A DNA stretch of 64,000 nt from assembly GCA_023382335.1 (NCBI GenBank), contig JAMCPM010000006.1:70372-134371 (forward strand), given 5' to 3'. Made by a program: the position numbers and the translations under genes. The DNA comes from Actinomycetota bacterium (lineage in GTDB: Bacteria; Actinomycetota; Thermoleophilia; BMS3ABIN01). Each line of letters starts with the position of its first letter. Positions within the stretch are counted from its first letter, which is position 1. Below the pieces are notes generated by a model. That model ran no database searches, had not been told where the DNA came from, and worked only from the letters and a program-made list of their open reading frames with translations. Shown here piece by piece: positions 9,575 through 38,559 of the stretch.

Positions 9575-9606
9575 CTTATCATTCCGCGGTTACAAGCAAT
9601 TCAGGA

Positions 9607-9831
9607 TTATACTGCCCGGAGAAAGCAAAAATCCAAGCAGCAATACTTTTTAATTAAGAAAACAAAAAAAGATTCGTGGCGGGAATAAATGGTCTCATCG
9701 GTTTCCAGAATCACTGAAAGTACGCTCAATAAAATGAGAGTAACGATAGAGACATTGAAAATTTTTCCAGGCAGGTCCTCAGATTTAAAATCTAAGATCT
9801 CGAATACGATGCTATGCACTTTTTTTCGCAT
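9607..9831 (-). CDS. hypothetical small protein (AT-rich islet)
   Basis: 74-aa ORF with a hydrophobic stretch, in the AT-rich segment between the lipoprotein gene and the membrane protein gene. Supported by the ORF call only. Confidence 0.25.
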   Translation of the reverse strand: MRKKVHSIVFEILDFKSEDLPGKIFNVSIVTLILLSVLSVILETDETIYSRHESFFVFLIKKYCCLDFCFLRAV

Positions 9832-9837
9832 CAGGAT

Positions 9838-10422
9838 CTATTCTCGTTCGATCGAATAGATTGGATGTAATTCATTCCAGCCATGCTCCGCATCCAAAAC
9901 ATAGTCGCCTAACACTTTGACACGATCTCCTGCTTTTGGTGTAAGAATTGGATAGGTAAAGCCCCTACACGCATCTTTTGCGTCCTCTTGCGTAATATTG
10001 TTCTGGCAAACCGGCTCGAGCACCAAATCGCCATGCTGACCGTCAACGTTCTTTTGGTTCAACATGCCTGAATACTGTGAGTCTAAAGTTAGACGGATGT
10101 GATAATCACCATCCGCTTCCTTCTTTACTGCTGCGACTGTCCCGGTGACCGTTTTGCAATTCTCAATCCTGTGAAGGCGTTGAGGGTTGTACACATGGTT
10201 CCAAAGACTTTCGTCGCACTCACTGGAACTGGGAGATGTTGCAGTGACTGACAATGGTGGTGTGATTGCGCCGGTCGTGGAAGCAAGTGGCGCCATACCC
10301 TGATCAGATTTAAGTGTCGAGGAGCCTGATTCAGCGCAGCCTATGATTAGAACAACAGCAAAAGGCAGAATTAGAAAGATTCTCCGGAAAGAAAGTAGGA
10401 ACACAATTCCGATCCTGGCCAA
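9838..10422 (-). CDS. hypothetical secreted lipoprotein (Cys-rich, unknown function), AT-rich islet
   Basis: N-terminal signal peptide with a lipobox (LIIGC), Ser/Thr-rich linker and several conserved Cys. No recognisable domain. Confidence 0.55.
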   Translation of the reverse strand: MARIGIVFLLSFRRIFLILPFAVVLIIGCAESGSSTLKSDQGMAPLASTTGAITPPLSVTATSPSSSECDESLWNHVYNPQRLHRIENCKTVTGTVAAVKKEADGDYHIRLTLDSQYSGMLNQKNVDGQHGDLVLEPVCQNNITQEDAKDACRGFTYPILTPKAGDRVKVLGDYVLDAEHGWNELHPIYSIERE

Positions 10423-21662: not shown

Positions 21663-22050
21663 GAGCCAAGCCTCCTCGGCGGCAGCCAGGCTGTTATAGT
21701 CACAAGACCTTAGACCCTTGGCTTTGCGCCACTCAGTTTCCTGAGCTTTGCCCTTATCACCTGGACTTGGCCTCTCCCCCACCAACCACGTACCAGAGCG
21801 CGGCTACACTAATAGCCACTATTTGTATCGACCCACGCGTGTAGATGTTTGAATTCCGACCGATGGGAAAGGCATTAAATGAAGCAAAACACCGGATTAC
21901 CAGCAGGGGTAATCGGGTAGGAATAAGGGATGTTATTGTTTGAAAAGAGCTCGTCTTTGTGCAATTATTACGATGGACCTAACCGCGGACAGTTAGTATT
22001 GTGGGCGCTCGAGTTGACGCGGGGGGAGGCGGGAAGGTTGATCCCCAGCC

Positions 22051-23697
22051 TTGAAAAAACTTAAAACAATGACAATTTTCGGGACCAGGCCCGAGGTAAT
22101 CAAGCTGGCCCCGGTCATAAGTGAGCTGGAAACGTCACCAAACTTCGAACCAGTTTTGGTGACAACTGGGCAACACCGTGAGATGCTAGGTCAAGCCCTC
22201 GACCAGTTTGGCATAATCCCCGATTACAACCTCGACATCATGCAGCCCGACCAGGGCGTAAGCGATGTCATCATCAGTTCCCTCCGCGGAGTCGAAGAGC
22301 TTATCTCGACTGAAAAACCGGACCTCGTCCTGGTCCAGGGGGACACCACCACCGCCTTCGCCGGCTGTCTGGCCGCATTCTATCAACAAACCGCTGTCGG
22401 CCACATAGAAGCAGGCCTGCGAACCTACGATAAATACAAGCCCTTCCCTGAGGAAATCAACCGCTCCATGATCACACAGTTGGCGGACATCCATTTCGTC
22501 CCCACGGTTACCGCCTGGGAGAGCCTCAGAAACGAAGGTGTCGATGCGGAAAAGATCTTTATCACCGGGAACACCGTGATTGACGCTTTGTTCCAGGTAG
22601 TCCAGCCGGATTACAACTTCTCCAATGCGGCTCTGGACGGCATAGGCAGCGAAGCCGGGCGTCTGATAGTCGTCACTTCGCACCGCCGGGAGAATTTCGG
22701 CCAGCCGCTTCTCGACATCTGCTCAGGGTTAATGGAGATAATCGACCGTTTCGACGATGTCGAGATCGTTTTTTCCGTCCACCGCAACCCCAAGGTCCGT
22801 GTGCCGGTTCAGGCGCTGCTTGGAGACAAGGAACGGATACATCTGGTGGAGCCTCTCGACTATATGGATATGGCCAACCTGCTGGCCCGATGTTTTCTGG
22901 TGATGACGGATTCCGGCGGACTGCAGGAGGAAGCTCCCGCTCTTGCCAAACCCGTTCTGGTCCTCAGGGAGGTAACAGAACGACCTGAGGCCGTACAGTC
23001 GGGTCAGGCAAAAATTGTTGGCACCTCGAAGCATGCCATCATAAGCGTCGCATCAGATCTACTCTTCAATGACGCCAGCTATGTTGCCATGACACATGGT
23101 GTAAGCCCGTATGGAGATGGAAAAGCAGCTTCCAGAATCATAAGCGCCATCGAATACGTCAATGGTATGCGCGAGAACAAGCCGGCACCGTTCATGAGCA
23201 GGCTCATCAGTCCGCTCAGCGGCGATCAGTTCGTGGCTGAGAAGCCGGTCAGCGATACCCTTTTCTACAACCAGTTGGACGAGCGCATCCGGCGCGCCAA
23301 AAGGGCGCGGCAACGCGTCTCGGTTGCCACGATAGATATGCGGGAGATCAGCAAACAGCAGTTCGCTGAAGCTTTCAGAACCATTACACGCAGCCTGAGG
23401 AAAACCGACACGGCGGCGGCGCTCGACGGTAGGCGAATGGTTCTCGTCCTTCCCGGAGCCAATAACGATCAGGCAAAAACTACAACAAGCCGGCTCCTCG
23501 GCAATCTTGCCGCCCCTTCTCTGGGCCGTCGCGAAGAAGACCGGGCCGCGCGTTTGTCCGCGGACCAGGTCCAGGATCTGATCAAAGCCGTAAATGTGAA
23601 TATCAAGACCTTCGACGAAGACGACGGTGCAGATATACCGGTTGCGGCCGAAACAGAGAATGAAGGTTATTCCAAGGCGGAAGAGGTGCCCGGATGA
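22051..23697 (+). CDS. UDP-N-acetylglucosamine 2-epimerase (non-hydrolysing, MnaA/WecB-like) with ~170-aa C-terminal degenerate GGDEF-like extension
   Basis: TTG start gives MKKLKTMTIFGTRPEVIKLAPV, which matches the MnaA N-terminus. A full epimerase domain runs to about residue 370. The tail (...DMREISKQQFAEAFRTITRSLRKTDTAAALDGRRMVLVLPGANNDQAKTTTSRLL) resembles a GGDEF domain with GGDEF replaced by DGRRM. Confidence 0.85.
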   Translation: MKKLKTMTIFGTRPEVIKLAPVISELETSPNFEPVLVTTGQHREMLGQALDQFGIIPDYNLDIMQPDQGVSDVIISSLRGVEELISTEKPDLVLVQGDTTTAFAGCLAAFYQQTAVGHIEAGLRTYDKYKPFPEEINRSMITQLADIHFVPTVTAWESLRNEGVDAEKIFITGNTVIDALFQVVQPDYNFSNAALDGIGSEAGRLIVVTSHRRENFGQPLLDICSGLMEIIDRFDDVEIVFSVHRNPKVRVPVQALLGDKERIHLVEPLDYMDMANLLARCFLVMTDSGGLQEEAPALAKPVLVLREVTERPEAVQSGQAKIVGTSKHAIISVASDLLFNDASYVAMTHGVSPYGDGKAASRIISAIEYVNGMRENKPAPFMSRLISPLSGDQFVAEKPVSDTLFYNQLDERIRRAKRARQRVSVATIDMREISKQQFAEAFRTITRSLRKTDTAAALDGRRMVLVLPGANNDQAKTTTSRLLGNLAAPSLGRREEDRAARLSADQVQDLIKAVNVNIKTFDEDDGADIPVAAETENEGYSKAEEVPG

Positions 23698-23830
23698 GCA
23701 ATATCACACCGGGATTCCGTCTCGGGACGCAGGACGCGGGTATTATCATAGTGGAGGGTTTTCCCGGACGGGCCGTGGGAGAAATCCGTCAGGCACCCAG
23801 GGGAATTATAGAAACGAGGGGGTGTAGGAC

Positions 23831-23950
23831 ATGTATGGAGTATTGCTACCAGTAACAGGCGTTGCGATCGGACTCTATGCCCTCGTTGCAGTTACAGCCG
23901 TAATCGTGGGTTCGCTAATGCGGATGAGGGGTAAGAAGACTGAACGGTGA
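23831..23950 (+). CDS. 39-aa membrane peptide with LPxTG-like motif + TM + basic tail (paralog of 12846..13046)
   Basis: Not in the ORF track because it is under 60 aa. ATG at 23831 is preceded by GAGGGGG. Translation MYGVLLPVTGVAIGLYALVAVTAVIVGSLMRMRGKKTER. An 8-bp hairpin follows (23951-23983). Confidence 0.4.
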   Translation: MYGVLLPVTGVAIGLYALVAVTAVIVGSLMRMRGKKTER

Positions 23951-24050
23951 TTCGGCTAAGATTATCATTGTTTCGTAGCCGAAATGATGATTCATGATTC
24001 CCCGATTCGAACCGAATAATGAGCGATCCGGAAATTGACAAAGATGTGAA

Positions 24051-26900
24051 ATGAATCCATCCCAAATATTTAGTTGGTTGAGAGTAACGCTACTTTTTGT
24101 AGGGTTACTCTTTTTATTGTCTTCTATCCCGATCGCGACCGCGGCTGGCGAAGCAATCGCACCGGAAAATCCGGCGTCAGCAGCTGCGGCTCCGGCCGGC
24201 CCCAAAGTACTGATCGTTCACGACCAGATCGACGACCCACAACTCGGGCAGGAACTAGCGGCGCTGCTGGGCCACTTCTCAGCCCAAAGCACGATTGTCG
24301 AGCAGCAGTTCTATGAAGCGGCCAGTCTGCAGAACTATGACATTATCTTCTATATGGGAGGTTCCCACCGGGAGATCAATCCAGACTTTCTGAAAGACGT
24401 CTCCACAACCGGCAAGACCGTCGTCTGGATGGGTCGCGGACTCGACTGGCTGGGGAACGTCTATCCTCTGAAAAATCTGGGTTTCGAGTATGCCCGGGTC
24501 GACGGTTCGGGAGCTTTCAATACCGTAACCTACGACAACACCCAGCTTGCAAGAACCAACCCTGTAACCAACGTCACTTATGTTACCGACGAATCCCGCG
24601 CTGAAGTGCCCGCATGGACCGAAGGAGATGGCGACCGGGCACCCTATGTCATTCACAGCGGTAGCTTCTGGTATTTCGCTGACATTCCGATGGTCGGAAC
24701 TGACGCCAATAGTGTCTACTCCGCTGTCGGCGCTACTGAAGACAGTGCCTACCTCGTCCTGGCGGATCTGCTTCACGACATCACCGGTCAGGACCACCCT
24801 TCACAACACGCGGCGCTGGTCCGCATCGAGGACATGCATCCCAACTCCGACGTCAACCGTCTGAACTCAGTCGTCGATTACCTCTACCACAAGCAGGTCC
24901 CCTTCGGCATCGCCCTGGTTCCGGTATACAAGAATCCGGCAACCGGCGAGCAAGTCCACCTGAGCGACCGCCCTGAATTTGTAGCCGCGATCAAGGACGC
25001 CGAGGCAAAGGGCGCTGTAATCGTGATGCACGGATATACCCATCAGCTAAACGGGGAGACGGTGGTCGATTACGAGTTCTGGGACGGGCAGACCCACGCC
25101 CCGCCTGCCAACGAAACCCCGGAATCGGTTAGCGCCAGGGTCGAGGCCGGCCTCAGGGAAACCGCGGCGGTAGGCATCTATCCGCAGATTTGGGAAACGC
25201 CCCACTATGCCGCATCCGACATGGCTCACAGCGTCATCTCACGCTATTTCAATGTAGTCTGGGAGCGAAGTGACGCTCCCTTCTTCCCCTATCTGGTAAC
25301 TCTGCCAAAAACCGGCCAGACCGACCTGCCCGAAACGTTGGGCTATGTGAACCCGACTGAAGGCTTTCCCGGTCAGGGCCATTCTGCTGACACGCTGGTC
25401 AGTGTCGCCGGCCAGCAGAAAGTAGTCAGGGACGGAACCGCCGCCTTCTTCTTCCATCCGATGGTAGACGGCAGCCAGTTACGAAAGACGGTCGAAGGGC
25501 TGCAGGATGAAGGTTTCACATTCGTCTCGCCCTTACAGATGGCCGGGCTGCCCTATACACCACCCGACCCGCCATCCTGGTTTTCGAATGCCCTATGGCA
25601 TATTGACAACCAGGTAGGCAGCCTGACGCCGGACGGCACCCTGGATACCAAGGTAATAACGCTCATCGCCTTTTTTATCATCTTCTACTATTGGGGAATG
25701 TTCCTGCTGTCACGGAAGCCCGCGCCTGTCACCGACCCGCCGGATGACAAGCTGCGCTTCGTCATCGTTGTTCCCTGTCTGAATGAAGAGCTGGTCATCG
25801 GCAGGACGCTCGACCATCTATTGGCATTGCCAAACCCGAATCTCAGCATCCTTGTAGTCGACGACAATTCCGATGACCGCACGCGGGAGATAGCGATGTC
25901 TTATCCGCGCGAGCGCGTTACCGTGATAGATCACCCGCCGAAAATAGCAAGACAGGGAAAGGGACGTGTGCTGAACTACGCTTTCCGGTCGCTCATGCAC
26001 GTGGCCTCCATGGAAAATCGTCGTACGGACAAAATCGTCCTGGGAGTAATCGACGCCGACGGCCGCGTCGAGAAAAATGTGATCGATTCCGTCAATCCAT
26101 ATTTCACCAATCCTAAGACTGGAGCCGTTCAGGTCGGAGTCAGAATTTCCAATGCCAATACCAACACGCTGACCAAGTGGCAAAATTTCGAATTCCTCAC
26201 CTTCGCGCGCATCTCGCAAAAGGCCAGAGAGCACCTCGGCAGCGTCGGTCTGGGCGGCAACGGCCAGTTCGTCCGCCTTTCGGCGCTTGCATCTCTGGGG
26301 GACGATCCCTGGACCGACTGCCTGACGGAAGATCTCGATCTCGGCATCCGGCTGATGCTGAAGGGATGGAATAACCGCTACTGCCCGGACAGCTTTGTCT
26401 CCCAGCAGGGAGTTCCCAAGATGAGGCCGCTGGTGCGGCAACGCACGCGCTGGTTCCAGGGTCACATTACCTGTTGGCGTCACATCCCCTCGCTACTGGC
26501 AGGCAAGACGTCGACCATGGCTCGGACAGATACTATTTATTATCTGCTGGCGCCCATCCTGGTATTCATGTTCCTGCCCAGTTCAATACTGTTCATATTC
26601 TGGTCGATATATTTTCTTGTGTCCGGCGCCTCAACAGTTGTGCTCTCGCCCCTCAGCTACATTCCAGTGCTGGTCGTCTGGTATCTATTCTCCTTTGGAG
26701 CCCTGCCGACGGTCGTCTGGACTTTTTGGCGTGAGGAAAAAGAGATCAGCGCCTGGAAGGCGTTCCTATGGGCCCATGTTTTTTCATTCTTTTACGTGAT
26801 CTGGTTTGTTGCAGGCTGCATCGCGGTGTATCGACTCGCCCGGGGACAGGGATCCTGGGCCAAGACTGCCAGGACTGAGGAATCGTTTCCAGCTCATTAA
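24051..26900 (+). CDS. bifunctional polysaccharide deacetylase-like (DUF2334/NodB-type) / family-2 processive glycosyltransferase (exopolysaccharide synthase, PNAG/cellulose-synthase-like)
   Basis: N-terminal signal/TM segment. ...VRIEDMHPNSD...VIVMHGYTHQ is DUF2334 deacetylase-like. A TM segment follows, then the GT2 domain (VIVVPCLNEE, VVDDNSDD, IDADG) and the processive QRTRWFQG (QxxRW) motif, plus C-terminal TM helices. Confidence 0.8.
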   Translation: MNPSQIFSWLRVTLLFVGLLFLLSSIPIATAAGEAIAPENPASAAAAPAGPKVLIVHDQIDDPQLGQELAALLGHFSAQSTIVEQQFYEAASLQNYDIIFYMGGSHREINPDFLKDVSTTGKTVVWMGRGLDWLGNVYPLKNLGFEYARVDGSGAFNTVTYDNTQLARTNPVTNVTYVTDESRAEVPAWTEGDGDRAPYVIHSGSFWYFADIPMVGTDANSVYSAVGATEDSAYLVLADLLHDITGQDHPSQHAALVRIEDMHPNSDVNRLNSVVDYLYHKQVPFGIALVPVYKNPATGEQVHLSDRPEFVAAIKDAEAKGAVIVMHGYTHQLNGETVVDYEFWDGQTHAPPANETPESVSARVEAGLRETAAVGIYPQIWETPHYAASDMAHSVISRYFNVVWERSDAPFFPYLVTLPKTGQTDLPETLGYVNPTEGFPGQGHSADTLVSVAGQQKVVRDGTAAFFFHPMVDGSQLRKTVEGLQDEGFTFVSPLQMAGLPYTPPDPPSWFSNALWHIDNQVGSLTPDGTLDTKVITLIAFFIIFYYWGMFLLSRKPAPVTDPPDDKLRFVIVVPCLNEELVIGRTLDHLLALPNPNLSILVVDDNSDDRTREIAMSYPRERVTVIDHPPKIARQGKGRVLNYAFRSLMHVASMENRRTDKIVLGVIDADGRVEKNVIDSVNPYFTNPKTGAVQVGVRISNANTNTLTKWQNFEFLTFARISQKAREHLGSVGLGGNGQFVRLSALASLGDDPWTDCLTEDLDLGIRLMLKGWNNRYCPDSFVSQQGVPKMRPLVRQRTRWFQGHITCWRHIPSLLAGKTSTMARTDTIYYLLAPILVFMFLPSSILFIFWSIYFLVSGASTVVLSPLSYIPVLVVWYLFSFGALPTVVWTFWREEKEISAWKAFLWAHVFSFFYVIWFVAGCIAVYRLARGQGSWAKTARTEESFPAH

Positions 26901-31391: not shown

Positions 31392-31773
31392 CGTATAAAG
31401 GTCCCTTAATCGTTAATATAAATCAATCAATCGGTCAAGACAAACAAAGGAGTTTTGATAAACAAAATGCTAAAGCTATTTTGCACTCTTCCGATAAGGG
31501 TTTTCGAACGCATCATATACGAAAAGGCAAACCCGCCGCGAGGCGGGGACGCAAAGCCAGGGGTCTCACGAAGACAGCCCAGCCGCCGAAGCTTTTGAAC
31601 GCAAGCTCTTAGGTTTTGGTCCTGGGCTTTATTACGGCCTATGGCGAGCATAGCTCAATCGCTTTGGCATTTCCAAGGTCGTTGAGCTTTTTTGTTGGAT
31701 GCGACGGGCACTAGGGATGAGGTCAGTCAATCTTCCTCGGCGGGAGGAAGGCAACAGCGAAAGGGGGTACCAG

Positions 31774-32319
31774 GTGATATTTTCAGCAAAGATAACCGCT
31801 CTAGCCGCGATATCGTTGATTTTGGTCCTGGTTCTTGCATCAGCCGTGTACGGAAAAACAAATTCCGACCCGGTAACCGTCAGTGCAACAGTCGATAATT
31901 TTATCTCCATCAGCCATCCCGGAAGCGTATCCCTGGGAACAATCCTGGGAACAGGCGGGTCTTCGGAAAACAGCGCCACCTGGAATGTGGCCACCAATAA
32001 CGCACTGGGATACACTCTGAATATTTCGGCCGCCGGTTCGCCGGCGATGAACAAGGGCGCCGATTCGTTCACAGACTACAGCGGCCCGGCTGTGTGGTCC
32101 ATAGCCGCAACCGATTCAGCTTTCGGTTTCAGCGTCAATGATAATGCACACTATCAGGGTTTCACCACACCCGGAACGCCTGTCCAGATTGTAAACTCCC
32201 CAAATCCGACCTCAGGACAGGATACCGCAATATTCTTCAAGGCTGAAGTTGGCGCCAGCCATCTGCAGCCCAGCGGCAGCTACGCCGCCAGTCTGACAGT
32301 TACAGCCACGACCCTGTGA
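31774..32319 (+). CDS. small secreted beta-rich protein (putative surface fibre/adhesin subunit), first gene of surface-protein cluster
   Basis: GTG at 31774 is preceded by AAAGGGGG. Signal peptide MIFSAKITALAAISLILVLVLASAVYG, and a Ser/Thr/Asn-rich mature region of about 155 aa with alternating beta-strand patterns. The ATG-started 31699 ORF has no RBS. Confidence 0.55.
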   Translation: MIFSAKITALAAISLILVLVLASAVYGKTNSDPVTVSATVDNFISISHPGSVSLGTILGTGGSSENSATWNVATNNALGYTLNISAAGSPAMNKGADSFTDYSGPAVWSIAATDSAFGFSVNDNAHYQGFTTPGTPVQIVNSPNPTSGQDTAIFFKAEVGASHLQPSGSYAASLTVTATTL

Positions 32320-32490
32320 TTGCATATAACTGAATAGGTAAAACCAAACGCAAGGTTCACGACGGAAGCCCTGAAAGAGGGCTTTCGCCGTTGTGCGGCG
32401 CCAGTAATTTTGACGCTACTTAGAACGCCGCATTGCGTACGATAATTCCTCTGAATTGCAGGAAAAGCAATGTGCGAAAGCGAAGTCTAG

Positions 32491-33897
32491 GTGTCGAATC
32501 CGGTTAGCTTGGTATCAGACTCCCGGCAACCGGATCCCTATCCCATGCCATTCGATCAAGACATCCGTCAGCCCGGGACAGAAAGCCGCTCAGCGGTATT
32601 CTCGAGACTGTCCGGCCCAATCACCAAACTGACCTTTTCCATCGCCCTGATCTTGCTTTTATTCCTGACTCATCAACCAGCAAGAGCTCTTGCATATACG
32701 GTGGAGAAACACGACGATCCGGTCACCGGTCAGTTTGTGATCTCCCCTACCAAAGTAGAGTTGGACGTAAAACAGGGAGACATCATCTCGAGGAACATCG
32801 AGATCTCAAATCGGACCGGCTCGACTTTGACCATCGAATTCTCGGTTGAGGATTTCGAGGGTTCGAGCGACCCGTCGCAGGCAACAGTCTTCAAGGGTGA
32901 TGAGGACAGCGCCTGGGGAGCGCGGCGCTGGTTACAGCCGGAGATATCGAGCATCGTCCTCAAGCAGGGCGAGACAGTAAATTTCAAAACCAAGATTGTC
33001 ATCCCCAAGGATGCCGAGGCAGGCGGCCATTATGCAGCTTTGTTCGCCTCATCGACTTACGCCTCCGAGAACGGCGAAGGCTCGGCGATAAACATCACCA
33101 GCAGAGTCGGTTCCCTTTTCCTGATCAGGGTAGAAGGCGCCGTAGTTGAGGTCGGTTCGCTTGAAAAACCGGAAGTGCCGCCCTTCTCCGAATATGGCCC
33201 GATCAATATCGGCCTGGTGTTCAACAATCAGGGCAACGTTCACCTGAAGCCTTCAGGCCACGTCTTCGTTACGAATTTTCTCGGCCAGACCGTCGCCGAC
33301 ATCCCGGTTCCGGAATGGGTGGTGCTTCCCGAATCGGTTCGCCGAAGCGTCGTCACCTGGGACAGCAAGTATCTGTTCGGCCGCTACACGGCCCGGGCGG
33401 AGATCGGGTATACGGAGGACGGCTCGCCTATTATCGTCTCAACCACTTTCTGGGTTATTCCCTGGAAGATCATTTTGGGAATATCCGCGGTAATAATAGC
33501 GATCATTGCCCTGGTTTCCTGGCTGGTGCGCAGGAGGCGCGGCGAACGCCGGGAGCTACAGGAAGAACTCGCGGACTTACGAGCCGCAAAGGTGACCTCT
33601 GAACTCGAACGCGCCGACATATCTTCCGGCCCACTTGCCGGTGAGAAGCAAATGGTGGCGCTCAATGAACTCTTCCCATCCATGGGGGACGCCGGGACGG
33701 TTGACTTGCGCGACGAAGAGACGCAGGCCTTGATCCGGGACATCATCGGTCAAGAGGTTGATCTGGGGCGCACTTTCATCGGCGAGGGAAGGATCGAAGA
33801 AGCTCGGGCCGAGCTCGAGGAAGCCCGAGCGGCGGCGAGGCGCATCGGTCTGCTTGCGGTTATCGGCATGATCGATGACCTGTTACGCGAGATTTGA
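32491..33897 (+). CDS. cell-surface protein: signal peptide, two beta-sandwich-like domains, C-terminal TM anchor and cytoplasmic coiled-coil tail (DUF916/DUF3324-like architecture)
   Basis: N-terminal signal region FSIALILLLFLTHQPARALA. Beta-rich ectodomain. TM segment WVIPWKIILGISAVIIAIIALVSWLVRRRRG, then about 110 aa of charged helical tail. Paralogous to 37654..38559 (shared RVGSL/RVGMEL and xIPWKx-TM motifs). Confidence 0.6.
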   Translation: MSNPVSLVSDSRQPDPYPMPFDQDIRQPGTESRSAVFSRLSGPITKLTFSIALILLLFLTHQPARALAYTVEKHDDPVTGQFVISPTKVELDVKQGDIISRNIEISNRTGSTLTIEFSVEDFEGSSDPSQATVFKGDEDSAWGARRWLQPEISSIVLKQGETVNFKTKIVIPKDAEAGGHYAALFASSTYASENGEGSAINITSRVGSLFLIRVEGAVVEVGSLEKPEVPPFSEYGPINIGLVFNNQGNVHLKPSGHVFVTNFLGQTVADIPVPEWVVLPESVRRSVVTWDSKYLFGRYTARAEIGYTEDGSPIIVSTTFWVIPWKIILGISAVIIAIIALVSWLVRRRRGERRELQEELADLRAAKVTSELERADISSGPLAGEKQMVALNELFPSMGDAGTVDLRDEETQALIRDIIGQEVDLGRTFIGEGRIEEARAELEEARAAARRIGLLAVIGMIDDLLREI

Positions 33898-34184
33898 TTC
33901 TGCTGCGGTTGCCCGTTTCAATGGCAGAGCCAGCTTCTTTCCGGTTGATAAATTGATTCTTTCATGAGACCATTGCCTCCGTTATATCGTGCATTGGGCC
34001 GGGAGGTCCACGGTCCACGCTGACGCTGCCTCTTCCTCAATCGAGGTCACACTGGGAGTCCGAAACTCCCTCGCTGTTGTTCTTGATGGTGAACCTTCGT
34101 CTTCAGGCAGGGTTATCAAGGTGGGCGATCCTGATGAGGGCTGCGTGACCTATGTGGTCCTGGACGACTAGAGCCCGGATAACC

Positions 34185-37100
34185 TCAGGAGGGAAAGGCC
34201 GTATAGACAATCGAGGCCGAGTAGTTCCCCGATGTCGCCAGCAGAGGCACTGACAACCGGTAGTCGAAGAAGAGTTGATAGCCGTCTGTCGCGGGTTGCA
34301 TGTTGGCAATTACCGTCTCGGCGGGGCTCTTGACCACAGTTTGAAAGGCTCCCGGCGCTTCACCGTCTTTTTTCCACTTCAGGTTTGAGATGTCTATGAC
34401 GTTACCGGGATTCGACTGAGCCAGATCGCCGGCCGCGGCCATCCCTATCCCCCAGCTCGTGTTCGACTTCACTGTCAGCTTCACCGCGTAGGCGGGCGGG
34501 CCTGTTTCGCCGACGTCGTAAGTAGTGCCGGGACTGACGTTTCCGAAGCCCACAGCTCCGCCTCCCGGTGTTTCGTCGCGATTAAATGTCTCGTTCACGG
34601 TAAGAGTCATCGATCCGGGAGCGGGTACGTACTCGATCGCCAGCTTCGGCCTCAAGGACGTGTCCGACAGATAATCCGATGAGAAGAAAAACTTGGCATC
34701 ATTGGCTGCAGGATTCTCCGCTGTTTTTTTGATAAAGGCTCCCTCGTTGGCAATGCTCCCGTTTATCCAGTTCTGAGCCAGATCCTTGATCGCAAAATCG
34801 ACCCATGCTCCCGATGCCGAGTTGGGAGCAATCGCCGTGGGCGGCGAGACGTTATTGAAATCGCCACCCGGCGTCGACCAGCCGTGGTTGCCATCCCAGG
34901 TCGCCCACGTCGCACCGTCTCCGGTAGCCGCGCCATTTCCAATGCCTTCAGCCCAGGAACGGCTTGCGTAGTCAAGCTCGAGGGGTACCGTGACCGGACT
35001 CTGTTGCCCGTGCTGGTAAAGCGACAGCGTGGCGCTGTTTACCGTTGACCCGGCCGGGATGGAGGAAAGATCAAACTTGATGAGGCCCCGGCGCGACTCC
35101 GCGGATCCGCTGACATTGCCGGCGGCGATGTCGGTCGACCCTCCGTAGTTGAGGCCGGCGCCCGAGCTCGATATCCAGGCATCCTGACCGGCGACCGGAG
35201 CGGGCTGGATGACCAGCATCCTGGCCGTCTGGAAGACATGGTCGCCGGAGACCGAGGTGTTGCCGAAGCTGTCGGTGGACCTCACGCGGTAGTGAAAAAC
35301 GGTGTCTTCCGTCAGACCGGTGAGCGGTACCGAATGCTGGTTTACCTGTGAGGGGTCTGTTGTCGTTGTCGAGCCATAGCTCGTGGTTGTTCCGTACTCC
35401 ACTTGCGAATCAGCCTGCGTGTCCGTCGACCATTTGATGCCGGCTGCATTTCGCGAAACGTTCTCCGTCCGGACCTCGCCAATGACCGGCGGGGTTGAAT
35501 CGTTGCCAAACCACTCGATCACCAGCTTTGGCCTCAGCGACGCGTCCGCAGCGTATTCCGCCGAATAAAAACTCTTGGCGTCGCTGCCTCCCGGATTTTC
35601 CGTCGCCTGTTTGATCAGGGCGCCATAGTTGTTGATGCCGCCATGGGCGGGTGTATTTATCCATGATTGAGCCAGTGCTGTGATATCCCAGTTGACCCAT
35701 GACGCCGTTGAGCTGGGGGCAACGCTGCCGGCGCTGGCCGTGGCGTTGTAATCTCCGCCGGCAGGCCAACTGCCGACGCCATCGGACGTAAGCCAGGTGA
35801 CGCCGTCGCCCGTGGCCGACCCCAAGCCGGTGCCCTCCGACCAGTCACGATTGAGGTAATGGATGTTAAGTGGCCGGGGACTGGCGTCTTCCTGGCCCAT
35901 CTGGTACAGAGAAAAGGTGGCGCTGCTCACGGTGGCATCGGTGGGAAAGCCGGAAAGGTCGAAGCCGATGACGCTGCGCATGGTTCCAAAACCGGGCGAC
36001 GCGATGTCACCAGCGCTGAGAATGCTTTCGGCTCCACGGTTCCAGGTTGGCTGGCTGGAACCGATGTATGTGTCTTTGCCGGATGCCGGAAAAAGCTGGA
36101 TCACGGTGATGTTGGCGGTACTGAAACTATATTCAGGCGATACCGATGTGTTGCCGCCGCGGTCGGTTGAAATCACCTGATAGTAGTAAGTGGTGGATGG
36201 CTGCAGGCCGGTCAATCCCTGGCTGTGTGACGTGATCATCGACGGATCCAGCGTCGTCGAGCTTGTGTAGCTTCCCGTGCTGGTGCCGTAACTGACCTGG
36301 GAGTCTGCCACCTCGTCGGTGGTCCAGCCGATCGAGGCACTGCCGCTTCTCACCTGTGAAGCGCCCACCCCGGAGATTGCCGGAGGATTGTTGTCCACAT
36401 AGACCTGCCGGGTTACCACCGTCTGATTTCCAGGATTGCCTGCCCGGTCGGTAACTGTCAGGCGGAGAGTGTAGAGCTGCCCGTCTGTGAGGCCGGTCGT
36501 ATCCCAACTGCCGAGCAGATTGTTCCGAACCGGCGGGCTATTGGTGGCGGAAGCTATCGTGGTCCAGGAAGAAGGAGAGGCTCCAGCGCCGTAATCGAGC
36601 ACGTATTTATAATAGCTGTAGGCGTCATCGGCGGTGCCGGTTACGGGAACCGCGCCCTTGACGAAAGCCGATGCCGATGGCAAGTCGATGGAAGCCACGG
36701 GCGGCGAGTCATCGATGAGGATCATCCGGGACATGTCAAAATCCAGGGCGCGAGCTGAACGCATGATATGCGAATTTATGGAGTACCACTGCCCGTCAGT
36801 CAGCCCACTGGCCGGCAACTGCAGCGTAAATCGATGATAGTTGTTTGAAACGCGCGAGTAGCCCGCCATGGTCAGGGGGGAGCTGACGCCGGAGTCAATA
36901 TCCTTTAGGGAATTAGTGGTATATGCGGCGCTGTAGTTAGCAGCGGCTCCATAACCCATAACGTTAACAGTGGCGCCGGAATGAAAGACATATGATTCGT
37001 CGGGCGCATTAGGGGGATAAGGCTGCGGGCCCGTCCAGTAGTAGTTCATGAACCTCGCCGGCTGTGTCGTCAGCTCGATTTCGTTCTGGAAAGTAATCTG

Positions 37101-37583
37101 GTTGCTCCCGCTGACGATCTGTCCGTACAGCCTCATGTAGTACGCTTGCGATGCCGGGATCAGCAGCGAGGAATAGTAATCGGAGCCAACCTGGGTCCAG
37201 ACCAGGTTTCGTCTGACGTAACCGGTTCCGGGCGGTGAGGCATTCCTGAAGTAATTGTATAGGTAAAGATAACCGGTGCCACCGCTGAACCGCGTGGTAT
37301 GCACCCTTACATACACTGTGGACCCGGGTGCGAAGGTCACGGTGTCCTGATTGCCGGCGCCGCTGCACCGGTTGGTGGTGCAGAATTCGATGACGTCGCC
37401 GTTGCTGAAGTTGTACAGACCGGCTGAAGTTTCGCCATATGCCTGCGCCCGCTCCACCCTGAGGCCTAGAATCGCAATGGCGGCAACAACCAGTGCGGCA
37501 AACAGCACTGATGAAGGGATAAGCAGCGCCAAATGTTTGCGCGCGCCGGTAAGGCCGACGAATCCTTTTGCAGGATTCTTCAT
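34185..37583 (-). CDS. giant secreted protein (~1131 aa) with signal peptide, two fibronectin-III-like domains and two tandem ~170-aa repeats carrying an R-x-W-[SA]-E-G motif
   Basis: Probable ATG at 37583 (MKNPAKGFVGLTGARKHLALLIPSSVLFAALVVAAIAILG). FN3-like blocks PPAISGVGASQV...TTYYYQVISTDRGGN and PPVIGEVRTENV...TVFHYRVRSTDSFGN. Repeats ...SATFSLYQMGQ...NIHYLNRDWSEGTG...RPKLVIEW and ...SATLSLYQHGQ...ELDYASRSWAEGIG...RPKLAIEY. Confidence 0.7.
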   Translation of the reverse strand: MKNPAKGFVGLTGARKHLALLIPSSVLFAALVVAAIAILGLRVERAQAYGETSAGLYNFSNGDVIEFCTTNRCSGAGNQDTVTFAPGSTVYVRVHTTRFSGGTGYLYLYNYFRNASPPGTGYVRRNLVWTQVGSDYYSSLLIPASQAYYMRLYGQIVSGSNQITFQNEIELTTQPARFMNYYWTGPQPYPPNAPDESYVFHSGATVNVMGYGAAANYSAAYTTNSLKDIDSGVSSPLTMAGYSRVSNNYHRFTLQLPASGLTDGQWYSINSHIMRSARALDFDMSRMILIDDSPPVASIDLPSASAFVKGAVPVTGTADDAYSYYKYVLDYGAGASPSSWTTIASATNSPPVRNNLLGSWDTTGLTDGQLYTLRLTVTDRAGNPGNQTVVTRQVYVDNNPPAISGVGASQVRSGSASIGWTTDEVADSQVSYGTSTGSYTSSTTLDPSMITSHSQGLTGLQPSTTYYYQVISTDRGGNTSVSPEYSFSTANITVIQLFPASGKDTYIGSSQPTWNRGAESILSAGDIASPGFGTMRSVIGFDLSGFPTDATVSSATFSLYQMGQEDASPRPLNIHYLNRDWSEGTGLGSATGDGVTWLTSDGVGSWPAGGDYNATASAGSVAPSSTASWVNWDITALAQSWINTPAHGGINNYGALIKQATENPGGSDAKSFYSAEYAADASLRPKLVIEWFGNDSTPPVIGEVRTENVSRNAAGIKWSTDTQADSQVEYGTTTSYGSTTTTDPSQVNQHSVPLTGLTEDTVFHYRVRSTDSFGNTSVSGDHVFQTARMLVIQPAPVAGQDAWISSSGAGLNYGGSTDIAAGNVSGSAESRRGLIKFDLSSIPAGSTVNSATLSLYQHGQQSPVTVPLELDYASRSWAEGIGNGAATGDGATWATWDGNHGWSTPGGDFNNVSPPTAIAPNSASGAWVDFAIKDLAQNWINGSIANEGAFIKKTAENPAANDAKFFFSSDYLSDTSLRPKLAIEYVPAPGSMTLTVNETFNRDETPGGGAVGFGNVSPGTTYDVGETGPPAYAVKLTVKSNTSWGIGMAAAGDLAQSNPGNVIDISNLKWKKDGEAPGAFQTVVKSPAETVIANMQPATDGYQLFFDYRLSVPLLATSGNYSASIVYTAFPS

Positions 37584-37653
37584 ATTGAGATACCCGCCTC
37601 CCTGTGGCATTCATGAACGGCGCGAATGCGTTTGAACAGCGGGAAAACGCCCT

Positions 37654-38559
37654 TTATTTTCCCGCCTTGCCACGTTGCGCCTTGACCGTTTCTCGCCCAT
37701 TCGGCGCCAAAACCTTAGCGATTATGGGCTGAAAACGCGCGCCCGTGGCAGCCGTCGCCGCCATGAGCGCCAGCATCAGGGAGAGTTTCCAGGGAAATAT
37801 TATGAAGAATGCCGTGGCTTTGACCGGAGTGCCGACTCCCGATCCCAGCCCCAGGACCCCCCGCTGCACGGAAAAAAGCGGCGCCTCATCCCAGAGAGCC
37901 CTGACAGTGGCGGTCTGGCCGACCGGCAGCGGATCGCTGGCGCCGGCGAGGTTGGTGTCCCTGCCGGTAAGTCCAGTCAGATCAACCTTTTCTTCCAGCC
38001 GGGTGGTGAAATTACCAGAATTGCGCCCCGAAGCATCGAAAACTACTTCCTCGGAGGAATCGATAATATGCGGAAACGACCAGCGGACATCCGCCACCGG
38101 ATGGATGACGTTGAGATCCAGCTCCATGCCGACCCTGCCGACGATTGCAACGTCGTTCCCGGAGGAGGACGCCGAGTCGAACAGTATCGTCTGTTGCCGG
38201 CGGCCCGCCGGGGCATTTTCCGGAACATTAATAGTGATGTAAACCACGGCCGACTCCCCCGGCTTGAGCGATACCTGTTCCCGGTCGAGGCTGATCGTCG
38301 CGCCGGGCTCGCCGGATGGTCCTATCCGGGAATTGACAATAATTTGATATGCGGATGAATTTTGAAGAGTTACGGCTTCCCGGGTTTCGTCACCGACGGC
38401 AATCGTGGGATTAACGTAAGTGGGGCTGACGCGGAAGCCGAGATCCGAGGCGGCGGCTGCCGGTGCGGCCGGCAACAGAAAGCTGGCGGGCAGCAGAATA
38501 CAGACCGGAAGCAGAAATATGGCAAAACGGACGATGGCGGCTGTGCGGGTGCTTGACAC
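37654..38559 (-). CDS. cell-surface protein paralog (signal peptide, beta-rich domain, C-terminal TM anchor)
   Basis: Signal peptide AIVRFAIFLLPVCILLPASFLLPAAPAAAA. ...IVGRVGMELDLNV..., then a C-terminal FFIIFPWKLSLMLALMAATAA TM segment and a basic tail. Same architecture as 32491..33897. Confidence 0.6.
   Translation of the reverse strand: MSSTRTAAIVRFAIFLLPVCILLPASFLLPAAPAAAASDLGFRVSPTYVNPTIAVGDETREAVTLQNSSAYQIIVNSRIGPSGEPGATISLDREQVSLKPGESAVVYITINVPENAPAGRRQQTILFDSASSSGNDVAIVGRVGMELDLNVIHPVADVRWSFPHIIDSSEEVVFDASGRNSGNFTTRLEEKVDLTGLTGRDTNLAGASDPLPVGQTATVRALWDEAPLFSVQRGVLGLGSGVGTPVKATAFFIIFPWKLSLMLALMAATAATGARFQPIIAKVLAPNGRETVKAQRGKAGK

What the first reader, a model, noticed from the sequence alone, without database searches (positions are those of the whole stretch)
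31774..38559. Cluster of secreted and C-terminally anchored surface proteins with a 1131-aa FN3 protein
Four adjacent genes encode: a small secreted beta-rich protein; two paralogous proteins with a signal peptide, a beta-sandwich ectodomain, a conserved xIPWK motif entering a C-terminal TM helix and a basic or coiled-coil cytoplasmic tail; and a giant secreted protein with two FN3 domains and two about 170-aa repeats sharing an R-x-W-[SA]-E-G motif. The architecture recalls the WxL/DUF916-type surface-complex clusters of Gram-positive bacteria. However, there are no WxL or LPxTG motifs. This may be an adhesin or surface-fibre assembly system particular to this lineage.
Basis: partly seen in the sequence, partly recalled or inferred. 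Interest (0 to 1): 0.55.

Follow-up and report, generated by a model that had tools for sequence, protein, structure and literature searches.

The report
Usher-less pilus-like surface protein cluster
This gene cluster from an uncultured actinobacterium encodes two membrane-anchored chaperone-like proteins, a small pilin-like subunit and a giant sugar-binding protein; it is related both to the WxL surface complexes of lactic acid bacteria and to the newly described "Pam" pili of ultra-small CPR (candidate phyla radiation) bacteria, which were reported to be exclusive to CPR.

Summary
The two anchored paralogues (B, D) are true homologues of Firmicutes WxL-interacting proteins (WxLIP; DUF916/DUF3324 plus a TM helix). 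hhalign gives E=1e-12 for B and 1.5e-7 for D, and the best PDB fold match for B is E. faecium WxLIP. They share the PapD-like fold of chaperone-usher chaperones. The small protein A is not a recognisable WxL domain. Its family has 1,074 clusters at 50% identity. The domain occurs alone or as the extreme C-terminal domain of large proteins. Family members match NCBIfam models for the CPR Pam pilus (PamT, Pam pilin). A's model weakly resembles donor-strand pilins. The giant protein C carries two DNRLRE/CBM96 and two FN3 modules and ends with the A-family terminal strand (Gly -14, Tyr -12). A-B and D-C are co-conserved at the same lgt/uvrA site in at least seven related genomes, and A-type genes flank B-type genes in 7 of 7 Patescibacteria cassettes examined. 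Best reading: a Sec-dependent, usher-less, donor-strand surface system with anchored chaperones, a pilin-like subunit and a glycan-binding adhesin. It is a new variant of a known kind, outside CPR and Firmicutes. Binding, polymerisation and the ligand are inferred, not shown.

The parts
31774..32319 (+). Gene A: small secreted pilin-like subunit. The longest ORF starts at 31699; the likely start is the GTG at 31774. It has a signal peptide, then a conserved N-terminal strand with alternating hydrophobic residues (DPVTVSATV), then a beta-sandwich ending G-S-Y-A-A-S-L-T-V-T-A-T-T-L.
   Evidence: ORF. Homologues start near 31774. AlphaFold model pLDDT 72.8, all-beta. Foldseek PDB hits are dominated by chaperone-usher pilins and TasA, but are weak. 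The family has 1,074 clusters. 20 of 69 family members match NCBIfam PamT and 4 of 69 match the Pam pilin model. No WxL match. Gly -14 / Tyr -12 motif in 130 of 137 members.
32491..33897 (+). Gene B: membrane-anchored WxLIP-like / PapD-like chaperone-fold protein. It comprises a signal peptide, two beta-sandwich domains (aa 69-214 and 222-322), FWVIPWK, a TM helix (about aa 325-348), a basic stretch and a folded helical cytoplasmic domain (aa ~385-468).
   Evidence: Model pLDDT 87.8. Top PDB fold hits are WxLIP 9i1y/9i25 (E~1e-10), then CsuC, CfaA, Caf1M, FimC and PapD. The family profile matches EfmWxLIP1 at E=5.8e-10. hhalign against six authentic WxLIPs gives 97.8% probability, E=1e-12. tblastn to an annotated Clavibacter DUF916 protein gives E=6e-11.
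33643..33894 (+). Cytoplasmic C-terminal domain of B: a helical hairpin bundle, lineage-specific and absent from the CPR and Firmicutes homologues.
   Evidence: pLDDT above 90 for aa 390-468. Conserved in Thermoleophilia-type homologues only. TIGR03504 FimV/HubP C-terminal domain is matched by 4 family members, E=4.4e-4. No solved relative by sequence.
33989..34171 (+). Gene E: small conserved ORF (60 aa) downstream of B. Orthologues encode a signal peptide plus a ~45-aa beta-strand-rich mature peptide ending VTYxVLDG. The window copy lacks the signal peptide.
   Evidence: Protein-level conservation in 11 of 11 lineage loci that carry C (HMM E from 1e-13 to 1e-32), while the DNA is conserved only in the closest relatives. 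Weak colinear similarity to A's mature N-terminal ~50 aa (hhalign E=0.0046 against controls of 0.15-0.77).
34185..37610 (-). Gene C: giant secreted multi-domain protein. It comprises a signal peptide, an unassigned N-terminal region, an Ig-like domain, FN3, DNRLRE/CBM96, FN3, DNRLRE/CBM96 and a ~145-aa C-terminal domain.
   Evidence: 49-64% identical orthologues lie convergent to B in 10 related loci.
35514..36077 (-). C, first DNRLRE/CBM96 module (aa 512-699).
   Evidence: NF033679 at 176 bits with 2 stretches; PF24517 at E=9e-24. CBM96 was founded on an alginate-specific module (PMC9971899).
34635..35114 (-). C, second DNRLRE/CBM96 / disaggregatase-repeat module (aa ~833-992).
   Evidence: PF06848 at E=1.8e-16, best stretch 833-992; second stretch of NF033679. 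SRSWAEG at residue 883.
36117..36350 (-). C, first FN3-like domain (aa 421-498).
   Evidence: PF16656 at E=3e-13 with two stretches, best stretch 421-498; fn3 at 411-493.
35241..35459 (-). C, second FN3-like domain (aa ~718-790).
   Evidence: Second stretch of PF16656 and fn3 (coordinates not printed). Weak Arylsulfotran_N and DUF7800 matches and the NCBIfam MXAN_2561 match (726-788) place it at about 718-790.
34188..34622 (-). C, C-terminal domain (aa ~997-1141) ending SGNYSASIVYTAFPS. It is the candidate client/pilin-type domain, because its last strand has the A-family register.
   Evidence: The A-domain HMM matches only the last 16 residues (p~5e-4 against 0.08-0.24 for controls). Gly at -14 and Tyr at -12 in 10 of 10 orthologues. 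hhalign against the A domain gives E=0.014 and against WxL 0.23-0.47, neither significant.
37654..38559 (-). Gene D: second membrane-anchored WxLIP-like / PapD-like protein with a short basic tail. It lies 43 bp upstream of C on the same strand.
   Evidence: The D orthologue group scores 99.4%, E=5e-21 against B-only profiles and 93.9%, E=1.5e-7 against authentic WxLIPs. tblastn to the Clavibacter DUF916 protein gives E=1.6e-6. D-type genes are present in 7 loci.

Best explanation
The locus encodes a Sec-dependent, usher-less donor-strand surface system of the Pam/WxL type in a monoderm actinobacterium. B and D are type-I membrane proteins whose two-beta-sandwich ectodomains are PapD-like chaperones, homologous to Firmicutes WxLIP and matching the published description of the CPR chaperones PamC and PamD. 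I propose the following sequence. As A and C leave the Sec channel, the anchored chaperone encoded beside each of them (B for A, D for C) inserts a beta-strand into the incomplete Ig-like client domain, next to its conserved C-terminal strand. This keeps the client folded and holds it at the outer face of the membrane. A subunits then polymerise head-to-tail by exchanging the chaperone strand for the N-terminal strand of the next subunit, forming a short fibre or stalk. C joins through its C-terminal domain as the distal adhesin and presents two CBM96 and two FN3 modules that bind a polysaccharide. The small protein E may supply a capping strand. Shown here: the folds, the homologies, the domain content and the co-conservation. 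Inferred: chaperone-client pairing, strand insertion, polymerisation, the glycan ligand and the role of E.
For: B and D are homologous to WxLIP and have a PapD-like chaperone fold: Foldseek gives 9i1y/9i25 at E~1e-10, followed by CsuC, CfaA, Caf1M, FimC and PapD; the profile matches EfmWxLIP1 at E=5.8e-10; hhalign gives 97.8% and 93.9%. A C-terminal TM with a basic or folded cytoplasmic tail places the ectodomain outside the cell. The A family matches curated Pam pilus models (20 of 69 PamT, best 1.5e-14; 4 of 69 Pam pilin), and in P0164 the PamT match overlaps the A domain. A's model gives consistent, though weak, hits to donor-strand pilins. The A family has an invariant Gly 14 residues from the C-terminus, Tyr at -12 and alternating hydrophobic residues (130 of 137), and C shares this register in 10 of 10 orthologues. 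A's mature N-terminus has a conserved alternating V-x-V-x-V strand that the monomer model leaves unpaired. The A domain occurs alone or as the extreme C-terminal module of proteins with many different passenger domains. Co-conservation: the full A-B / C-D layout occurs in 7 loci, and C and E accompany B in 10-11 loci. In 7 of 7 Patescibacteria cassettes an A-type gene lies directly beside a B-type gene, in most followed by a PamT-like gene and a TM-anchored protein (FN3-containing in some). Published Pam model: pilins joined by donor-strand exchange, TM-anchored PapD-like chaperones, no usher. Published WxLIP model: a WxLIP strand completes the WxL sandwich.
Against: Window A itself does not match the PamT or Pam pilin models; the link is transitive and below NCBIfam's equivalog cut-off of 240 bits. 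PamC and PamD sequences and the Pam structures were not available, so B and D were never compared with them directly. A's model has only moderate confidence and the pilin matches have TM-scores of 0.3-0.5. C's C-terminal domain resembles A only in its last strand. The window has no two-domain PamA/B-type pilin and no PamR-like FnIII-TM terminator. No complex prediction could be run, so no contact is shown. L003, L004 and L013 keep B alone, so B may also have a client-independent role. The window copy of E lacks a signal peptide.
Confidence: 0.5

Rival explanations
1. Same parts and same chaperone-like strand complementation, but no polymer: a static WxL-type display complex. B holds A and D holds C permanently at the membrane or wall as 1:1 (or 2:2) complexes. 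A serves as a platform or stabiliser and C as the exposed glycan-binding adhesin.
For: B and D are homologous to WxLIP, which has been crystallised as a stable complex with long WxL (9i25). WxL clusters are interpreted as surface platforms rather than fibres. The gene order small client -> anchored protein -> large protein is the same as in six Firmicutes loci. The window lacks a PamA/B-type two-domain pilin and a PamR-type terminator. C's C-terminal domain differs from A.
Against: A and C are not detectable WxL domains. The A family matches pilus subunit models from a system shown by cryo-EM to form filaments. A has a conserved, exposed N-terminal strand typical of donor strands.
Confidence: 0.33
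2. B and/or D are not chaperones but matrix scaffolds or terminators of the RbmA/PamR type: tandem Ig/FnIII domains on a TM anchor. They would tether the cell's own exopolysaccharide and the CBM96 protein C to the envelope, with A as an accessory matrix protein.
For: Foldseek also returns V. cholerae RbmA for B (E~5e-9), and PamR is described as RbmA-like with a C-terminal TM. An exopolysaccharide-type gene set lies 5-12 kb upstream, and its epimerase and DUF2334-GT2 synthase genes are syntenic in relatives. CBM96 binds an acidic polysaccharide.
Against: TM-scores to RbmA (0.33-0.35, rmsd ~14-15 A) are clearly worse than to chaperone-usher chaperones and WxLIP (0.44-0.54, rmsd 7-9 A). Sequence-profile homology is to WxLIP. 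The tight A-B pairing across phyla is not explained by this model.
Confidence: 0.1
3. The genes are functionally unrelated neighbours: C is a free secreted polysaccharide-binding or -degrading protein, B and D are generic 'COG1470-type' membrane proteins, and A is an unrelated secreted protein.
For: NCBI names some B homologues only as 'COG1470 family protein'. A has no annotated domain. B persists alone in L003, L004 and L013.
Against: Co-conservation of A, B, E, C and D at one site across genomes with only 37-64% protein identity. A-B adjacency recurs in a different phylum. When the cluster decays, A, C and D are lost together. C shares the A-family terminal motif.
Confidence: 0.04

Closest known systems
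Pam pilus of CPR bacteria (Ca. Mycosynbacter amalyticus; Troman et al. 2026, bioRxiv 10.64898/2026.03.03.709456; NCBIfam NF058579 PamT, NF058581 Pam pilin)
   Same: All parts are Sec-exported. There are two paralogous PapD/FimC-like chaperones carrying a C-terminal TM helix, small Ig-like subunits related at family level to PamT and the Pam pilin, and no usher or envelope-spanning machine. The CPR relatives of this locus (A - B - A' - TM-anchored protein, FN3-containing in some) reproduce the logic of the pam operon.
   Different: The host is an actinobacterium, not CPR, whereas the preprint reports Pam pilins as exclusive to CPR but searched only a CPR database. The subunit A is single-domain, not NTD + linker + CTD. 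There is no PamR-like terminator. A 1,141-aa CBM96/FN3 protein and a ~45-aa secreted mini-protein take part instead. B has an extra cytoplasmic domain. Matches to the Pam models are far below the equivalog cut-offs, and window A does not match directly.
WxL / Csc cell-surface clusters of Lactobacillales and Bacillales (small WxL + large WxL + WxLIP = DUF916-DUF3324-TM; Siezen 2006; Hassan & Williamson 2022, 2023; PDB 9i1y, 9i25)
   Same: The anchored protein is homologous over the whole ectodomain plus TM. The gene order small client -> anchored protein -> large multi-domain protein is the same. The client domain occurs either alone or at the extreme C-terminus of large adhesin-like proteins. 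The mode of binding predicted in the literature is a strand from the anchored protein completing the client's sandwich.
   Different: There is no WxL domain: no Trp-x-Leu motifs, no PF13731 match in 69 family members, and hhalign E=0.09-0.47 against 1.4e-17 for the positive control. There is no LPXTG partner and no sortase. There are two anchored paralogues instead of one. The phyla differ. PF11797 (DUF3324) is not matched.
Classical chaperone-usher pili of Gram-negative bacteria (Pap, Fim, Csu, CFA/I, Caf1)
   Same: B has the two-domain PapD-like chaperone fold. A gives pilin-like fold hits. The subunit C-terminal motif has Gly 14 residues from the end and alternating hydrophobic residues; that this is a hallmark of PapD-dependent pilins is from my own knowledge of the field, not tested here.
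   Different: There is no outer membrane and no usher. The chaperone is tethered by a TM helix. There is no penultimate Tyr. No sequence-level relationship was detected; only faint SCPU, DUF4402, TafC and SafA echoes appeared.
DNRLRE / CBM96 domain proteins (NF033679; PF24517)
   Same: C contains two full copies well above the curated cut-offs.
   Different: The founding CBM96 is an appendage of an alginate lyase. Here no catalytic domain is detected, and the modules sit in a surface-display or adhesin context.

Membership tests
WxL cluster (Hassan & Williamson definition, PMC10599100) | At least one WxLIP: DUF916 (PGBD) + DUF3324 (HBD) + C-terminal TM helix | tested here: met
   B: hhalign against six authentic WxLIPs gives 97.8%, E=1e-12 over 214-307 columns. 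D group: 93.9%, E=1.5e-7. The best PDB fold hit for B is WxLIP 9i1y/9i25. The profile matches EfmWxLIP1 at E=5.8e-10. 16 of 25 family members match PF06030. Caveat: B and D themselves are below Pfam thresholds, and PF11797 is not matched.
WxL cluster (Hassan & Williamson definition, PMC10599100) | At least two WxL-domain proteins with the dual Trp-x-Leu motif (PF13731) | tested here: not met
   No W-x-L in A or C. No PF13731 hit for A, 18 close or 69 broad family members. hhalign of the A domain against small and large WxL gives E=0.086 and 0.16; C's C-terminus gives 0.23 and 0.47; the positive control gives 1.4e-17.
WxL cluster (Hassan & Williamson definition, PMC10599100) | Small client protein plus large protein carrying the client domain at its extreme C-terminus, adjacent to the WxLIP gene | tested here: inconclusive
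   The architecture is parallel (A next to B; C next to D; the A domain is terminal in many large proteins). But C shares only the last strand and its Gly -14 / Tyr -12 register with A.
Pam pilus system (CPR) | Subunits belonging to the Pam pilin / PamT family (truncated Ig-like acceptor domain) | tested here: inconclusive
   Family level: 20 of 69 A-family members match NF058579 (best 1.5e-14) and 4 of 69 match NF058581, and the PamT match overlaps the A domain in P0164. Window A gives no direct hit, and all scores are far below the 240-bit equivalog cut-off. Whether the fold has an open groove could not be checked.
Pam pilus system (CPR) | Two-domain major pilins (nine-strand NTD + linker donor strand + CTD) such as PamA, PamB and PamE | tested here: not met
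   A is a single ~150-aa domain. C has a different, CBM96/FN3-based architecture.
Pam pilus system (CPR) | PapD/FimC-like chaperones carrying a C-terminal TM helix (PamC, PamD) | tested here: met
   B: two beta-sandwich domains plus TM. Foldseek hits to CsuC, CfaA, Caf1M, FimC and PapD at E from 1e-10 to 1e-6. D is a paralogue. Direct comparison with PamC/PamD sequences was not possible, because neither sequences nor structures were available.
Pam pilus system (CPR) | PamR-type terminator/anchor (tandem FnIII + C-terminal TM + N-terminal strand) | tested here: not met
   No such gene lies between lgt and uvrA in the window. Candidate equivalents exist only in the CPR cassettes.
Pam pilus system (CPR) | Filament assembled by donor-strand exchange | not testable with these tools
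   This needs multimer prediction or experiment.
Classical chaperone-usher pathway | Outer-membrane usher | tested here: not met
   None of the genes of the cluster or its conserved flanks is an usher. The host lineage is Actinomycetota.
DNRLRE / CBM96 domain family | Match to NF033679 / PF24517 above the curated cut-off | tested here: met
   176.3 bits against 34, and 84.6 bits against 26, with two copies.

The most novel reading that the evidence does not exclude
WxL clusters of Firmicutes, Pam pili of Patescibacteria and this actinobacterial locus are branches of one ancient family of usher-less donor-strand systems in bacteria lacking a Gram-negative outer membrane. All are built around a membrane-tethered PapD-like chaperone (WxLIP = PamC/D = B/D), with interchangeable client domains. 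The unannotated A domain (over 1,000 clusters at 50% identity) would then be a general C-terminal 'attach-me-to-the-anchored-chaperone' tag that displays very diverse passenger domains. In these actinobacteria it would build a glycan-binding fibre capped by a ~45-residue strand-donor mini-protein.
Probability: 0.3. Interest if true: 0.8.

Novelty: new variant of a known kind. Interest (0 to 1): 0.6.

Why it matters
If correct, it does three things. First, it takes the Pam-type pilus, reported in 2026 as exclusive to CPR bacteria, into free-living Actinomycetota. Second, it links that pilus by demonstrable homology of the anchored chaperone to the long-known but mechanistically unclear WxL/DUF916 clusters of lactobacilli, enterococci and Listeria; this suggests WxLIP works as a tethered chaperone in the chaperone-usher sense. 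Third, it defines a large unannotated protein domain that marks surface-displayed proteins in Patescibacteria, organisms whose attachment to hosts is central to their biology. It also gives testable predictions for how bacteria without an outer membrane could assemble donor-strand fibres without an usher.

Tried and rejected
1. A as a WxL domain: rejected at sequence level. There are no Pfam hits in 18 and 69 relatives, and hhalign is no better than the negative controls. Only the pattern of the last strand is shared.
2. C's C-terminal domain as a full A domain: rejected. The HMM and hhalign match the last strand only.
3. Sortase/LPXTG anchoring: none. The only hit, LPASG at C residue 265, is internal.
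4. Sequence relatives of A in the PDB: none at E<=10 with two profiles.
5. Solved relatives of B's cytoplasmic domain: none.
6. Curated Pam chaperone models for the B family: no hit.
7. Promoter and terminator scans: not above shuffled expectation (7 against 3.1±1.8; 10 against 7.0±2.8).
10. The Pam preprint's supplement holds no sequences, so B/D could not be compared with PamC/PamD.
11. The Nat Commun 2025 'signal-strapping' paper mentions WxLIP only in passing.

Full report
OBSERVATION. The ORFs are as described. A is at 31699/31774-32319 (+), B at 32491-33897 (+), C at 34185-37610 (-) and D at 37654-38559 (-). They lie between lgt/ccdA/tlpA and uvrA/uvrB. A-B and D-C form two convergent pairs, with gaps of 171 bp and 43 bp. 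All four proteins start with a hydrophobic export segment. Only B and D have a C-terminal TM, entered through FWVIPWK or FIIFPWK. C reaches curated cut-offs for two DNRLRE/CBM96 domains (176 bits against 34) and has two FN3-like domains. There is no terminal LPxTG, and no W-x-L motif in A, B or C. B is 100% identical to a hypothetical protein of an 'Actinobacteria bacterium' MAG. Its relatives are labelled Thermoleophilia, Gaiellales or Actinomycetes.

THE ANCHORED PARALOGUES. B and D are weakly similar as single sequences (E=5e-4) but clearly related as orthologue profiles (99.4%, E=5e-21, 240 columns). B's family extends to ~320-aa proteins of Patescibacteria. 16 of 25 aligned members match PF06030 WxLIP_PGBD. 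The AlphaFold model of B (pLDDT 87.8) has two beta-sandwich domains, a TM helix and a folded cytoplasmic helical domain. Its best matches in the PDB are E. faecium WxLIP, free and bound to long WxL (9i1y, 9i25; E~1e-10). The chaperone-usher chaperones CsuC, CfaA, Caf1M, FimC and PapD follow immediately; RbmA matches with much poorer superposition. The family profile matches EfmWxLIP1 at E=5.8e-10, with the next PDB sequence at 0.047. Against six authentic Firmicutes WxLIPs harvested from annotated plasmid loci, hhalign gives 97.8% (E~1e-12) for the B family and 93.9% (E=1.5e-7) for the D group. B also matches a PGAP-annotated Clavibacter DUF916 protein by tblastn (E=6e-11). B and D are therefore homologues of WxL-interacting proteins and have a PapD-like chaperone fold.

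THE SMALL SUBUNIT. A has no Pfam, NCBIfam or PDB sequence match. An exhaustive HMMER search found 1,074 representative clusters at E<=1e-3. The domain is either a stand-alone ~200-260-aa protein or the extreme C-terminal domain of 400-1,500-aa proteins. Those large proteins carry unrelated passengers: beta-propellers, Laminin_G/DUF2341, DUF285, PKD, Big_5, FG-GAP and disaggregatase repeats. None of 69 diverse members matches Pfam WxL. Profile-profile comparison with authentic small and large WxL domains is no better than the negative controls (E=0.086-0.47 against 0.14-0.31), while the positive control gives 1.4e-17. A is thus not a recognisable WxL domain. Instead, 20 of 69 members match NCBIfam NF058579 'CPR-type pilus protein PamT' (best 1.5e-14) and 4 match NF058581 'Pam pilus system pilin subunit'. 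In P0164 the PamT match overlaps the A domain. Window A itself is too divergent to match directly. A's model (pLDDT 72.8) gives weak but one-sided Foldseek hits to donor-strand pilins: CS20, FimA/F/G, PapE, CfaB, CsuA/B and TasA, with TM-scores of 0.3-0.5. The family has an invariant Gly exactly 14 residues from the C-terminus in 130 of 137 members, an invariant Tyr at -12 and alternating hydrophobic residues. The mature N-terminus carries a conserved V-x-V-x-V strand that the monomer model leaves unpaired.

THE GIANT PROTEIN. C's modules are listed above. CBM96 was founded on an alginate-specific binding module (PMC9971899). No catalytic domain is detected. Its ~145-aa C-terminal domain matches the A-domain HMM only over the last strand. 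However, all 10 orthologues with an intact end have Gly at -14 and Tyr at -12, the A-family register. Authentic WxL tails have a different and variable register.

A FIFTH GENE. A 60-aa ORF between B and C (33989-34171, +) is conserved at protein level downstream of B in 11 of 11 lineage loci that carry C (HMM E from 1e-13 to 1e-32). The DNA is conserved only in the nearest relatives. Orthologues encode a signal peptide plus a ~45-aa beta-rich peptide ending VTYxVLDG. The window copy and L010 lack the signal peptide. It aligns weakly and colinearly with A's mature N-terminal ~50 residues (E=0.0046 against controls of 0.15-0.77).

CO-CONSERVATION. The full layout (A->B, then D->C convergent) at the same lgt/uvrA site is present in the window and in L001, L012, L015, L017, L018 and L020. 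C is also present in L010, L011, L014 and L019, which are truncated contigs. In L003 and L004, B is intact but A survives only as a C-terminal fragment, D as a 44-residue remnant, and C is gone. L013 also keeps B only. Starting from A-domain proteins on five long Patescibacteria contigs chosen without knowledge of their neighbours, a B-family gene follows immediately in 5 of 5 (E from 1e-84 to 1e-100). In 4 of 5 a PamT-like A' gene comes next. In 4 of the 5, the next gene ends in a C-terminal TM anchor. L002 and L032 show the same cassette. Some distant B-type loci (L007, L008) have no A domain, and L009 has only a weak match. Actinomycetes plasmids pair a DUF916 gene with a small WxL-like protein (PF13731 E=5.5e-4). 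The anchored chaperone-like protein is therefore the constant element and the client domain varies.

COMPARISON WITH KNOWN SYSTEMS. Hassan & Williamson define a WxL cluster as at least one WxLIP plus two WxL proteins. They predict that a WxLIP strand completes the WxL sandwich. Troman et al. (2026) solved Pam pili of a CPR bacterium. Their features are Ig-like pilins joined by donor-strand exchange, a single-domain tip pilin PamT, two PapD-like chaperones with C-terminal TM helices (PamC, PamD), a TM-anchored FnIII terminator PamR, and no usher. The pilins were reported as exclusive to CPR, but only a CPR genome database was searched, and WxL and DUF916 are not mentioned. The present locus shares the anchored-chaperone core with both systems, and at family level shares the subunit type with Pam. 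It fails the WxL-domain criterion and lacks PamA/B-type two-domain pilins and PamR.

VERDICT. This is a real, co-conserved five-gene surface system. It is a new variant of a known kind (Pam/WxL-type anchored-chaperone systems), found in a phylum where neither has been described. It provides evidence that WxLIP-type proteins and the anchored, PapD-like chaperone-fold proteins encoded in Pam-related cassettes belong to one family.

Noticed in passing
window 33989-34171 (+); orthologues e.g. L001 11399-11713, L015 2552-2800, L011 1851-2159: Unannotated small gene between B and C, conserved at protein level in 11 of 11 related loci. Orthologues have a signal peptide plus a ~45-aa beta-rich peptide ending VTYxVLDG. 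The window and L010 copies have lost the signal-peptide part. Weak similarity to the N-terminal third of A.
   Followed up: partly
window 33643-33894 (B residues ~385-468): B carries a confidently folded cytoplasmic helical domain that is absent from CPR and Firmicutes homologues. In four family members it matches TIGR03504 (FimV/HubP C-terminal domain, E=4.4e-4). This hints at coupling to a cytoplasmic or polar-landmark partner.
   Followed up: partly
window 19230-26900: An exopolysaccharide-type gene set lies upstream: GH26 + Big_7 (19230-21785, -), UDP-GlcNAc 2-epimerase (22051-23697, +) and a DUF2334-GT2 fusion synthase (24051-26900, +). The epimerase and DUF2334-GT2 genes are syntenic in L001, L003 and L004. 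Its product could be the ligand of C's CBM96 modules.
   Followed up: partly
window 7919-9574 (-), within the 8001-10000 low-GC patch: GC drops to 0.44 against about 0.55-0.63 elsewhere. The 551-aa ORF there has no Pfam match. It is possibly foreign DNA.
   Followed up: no
L003 / L004 9437-9757 and 11620-11889; L013: Decayed versions of the cluster: B is intact, A is reduced to its C-terminal half, D to a 44-residue remnant, and C is deleted. B is thus retained when its presumed clients are lost.
   Followed up: partly
L005 6227-7804 (Arthrobacter plasmid); L006 6101-7915 (Clavibacter plasmid): Actinomycetes plasmids carry a small secreted protein directly upstream of an annotated DUF916 gene. 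The Arthrobacter one matches Pfam WxL below threshold (E=5.5e-4). In Clavibacter the pair sits between two GH43 genes. WxL-like pairs therefore exist outside Firmicutes.
   Followed up: partly
L002 1-8609; L030 11181-14642; L032 1-5054 and 10600-16702: The CPR A-B-A'-X cassettes are flanked by giant proteins of 2,200 to over 3,500 aa (Peptidase_S74, Laminin_G_3/Gly-rich, or unannotated). The Pam preprint also notes a tail-fibre-like protein in pam neighbourhoods.
   Followed up: no
L008 7986-10083; L007 6887-11092: Some distant B-family loci have two tandem B-type genes (L008) or runs of unannotated co-oriented ORFs with no A domain. This suggests further, still unrecognised client families.
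   Followed up: no
A'-type proteins, e.g. L002 11049-11849 residues ~20-75; P0155 N-terminus: PamT-like A' proteins carry an N-terminal extension with repeated S-x-N-Y-x-L...G motifs (QSNNFQIQSDSVNVGG...SSNYRLESTVGE) ahead of the A domain. Its role is unknown.
   Followed up: no
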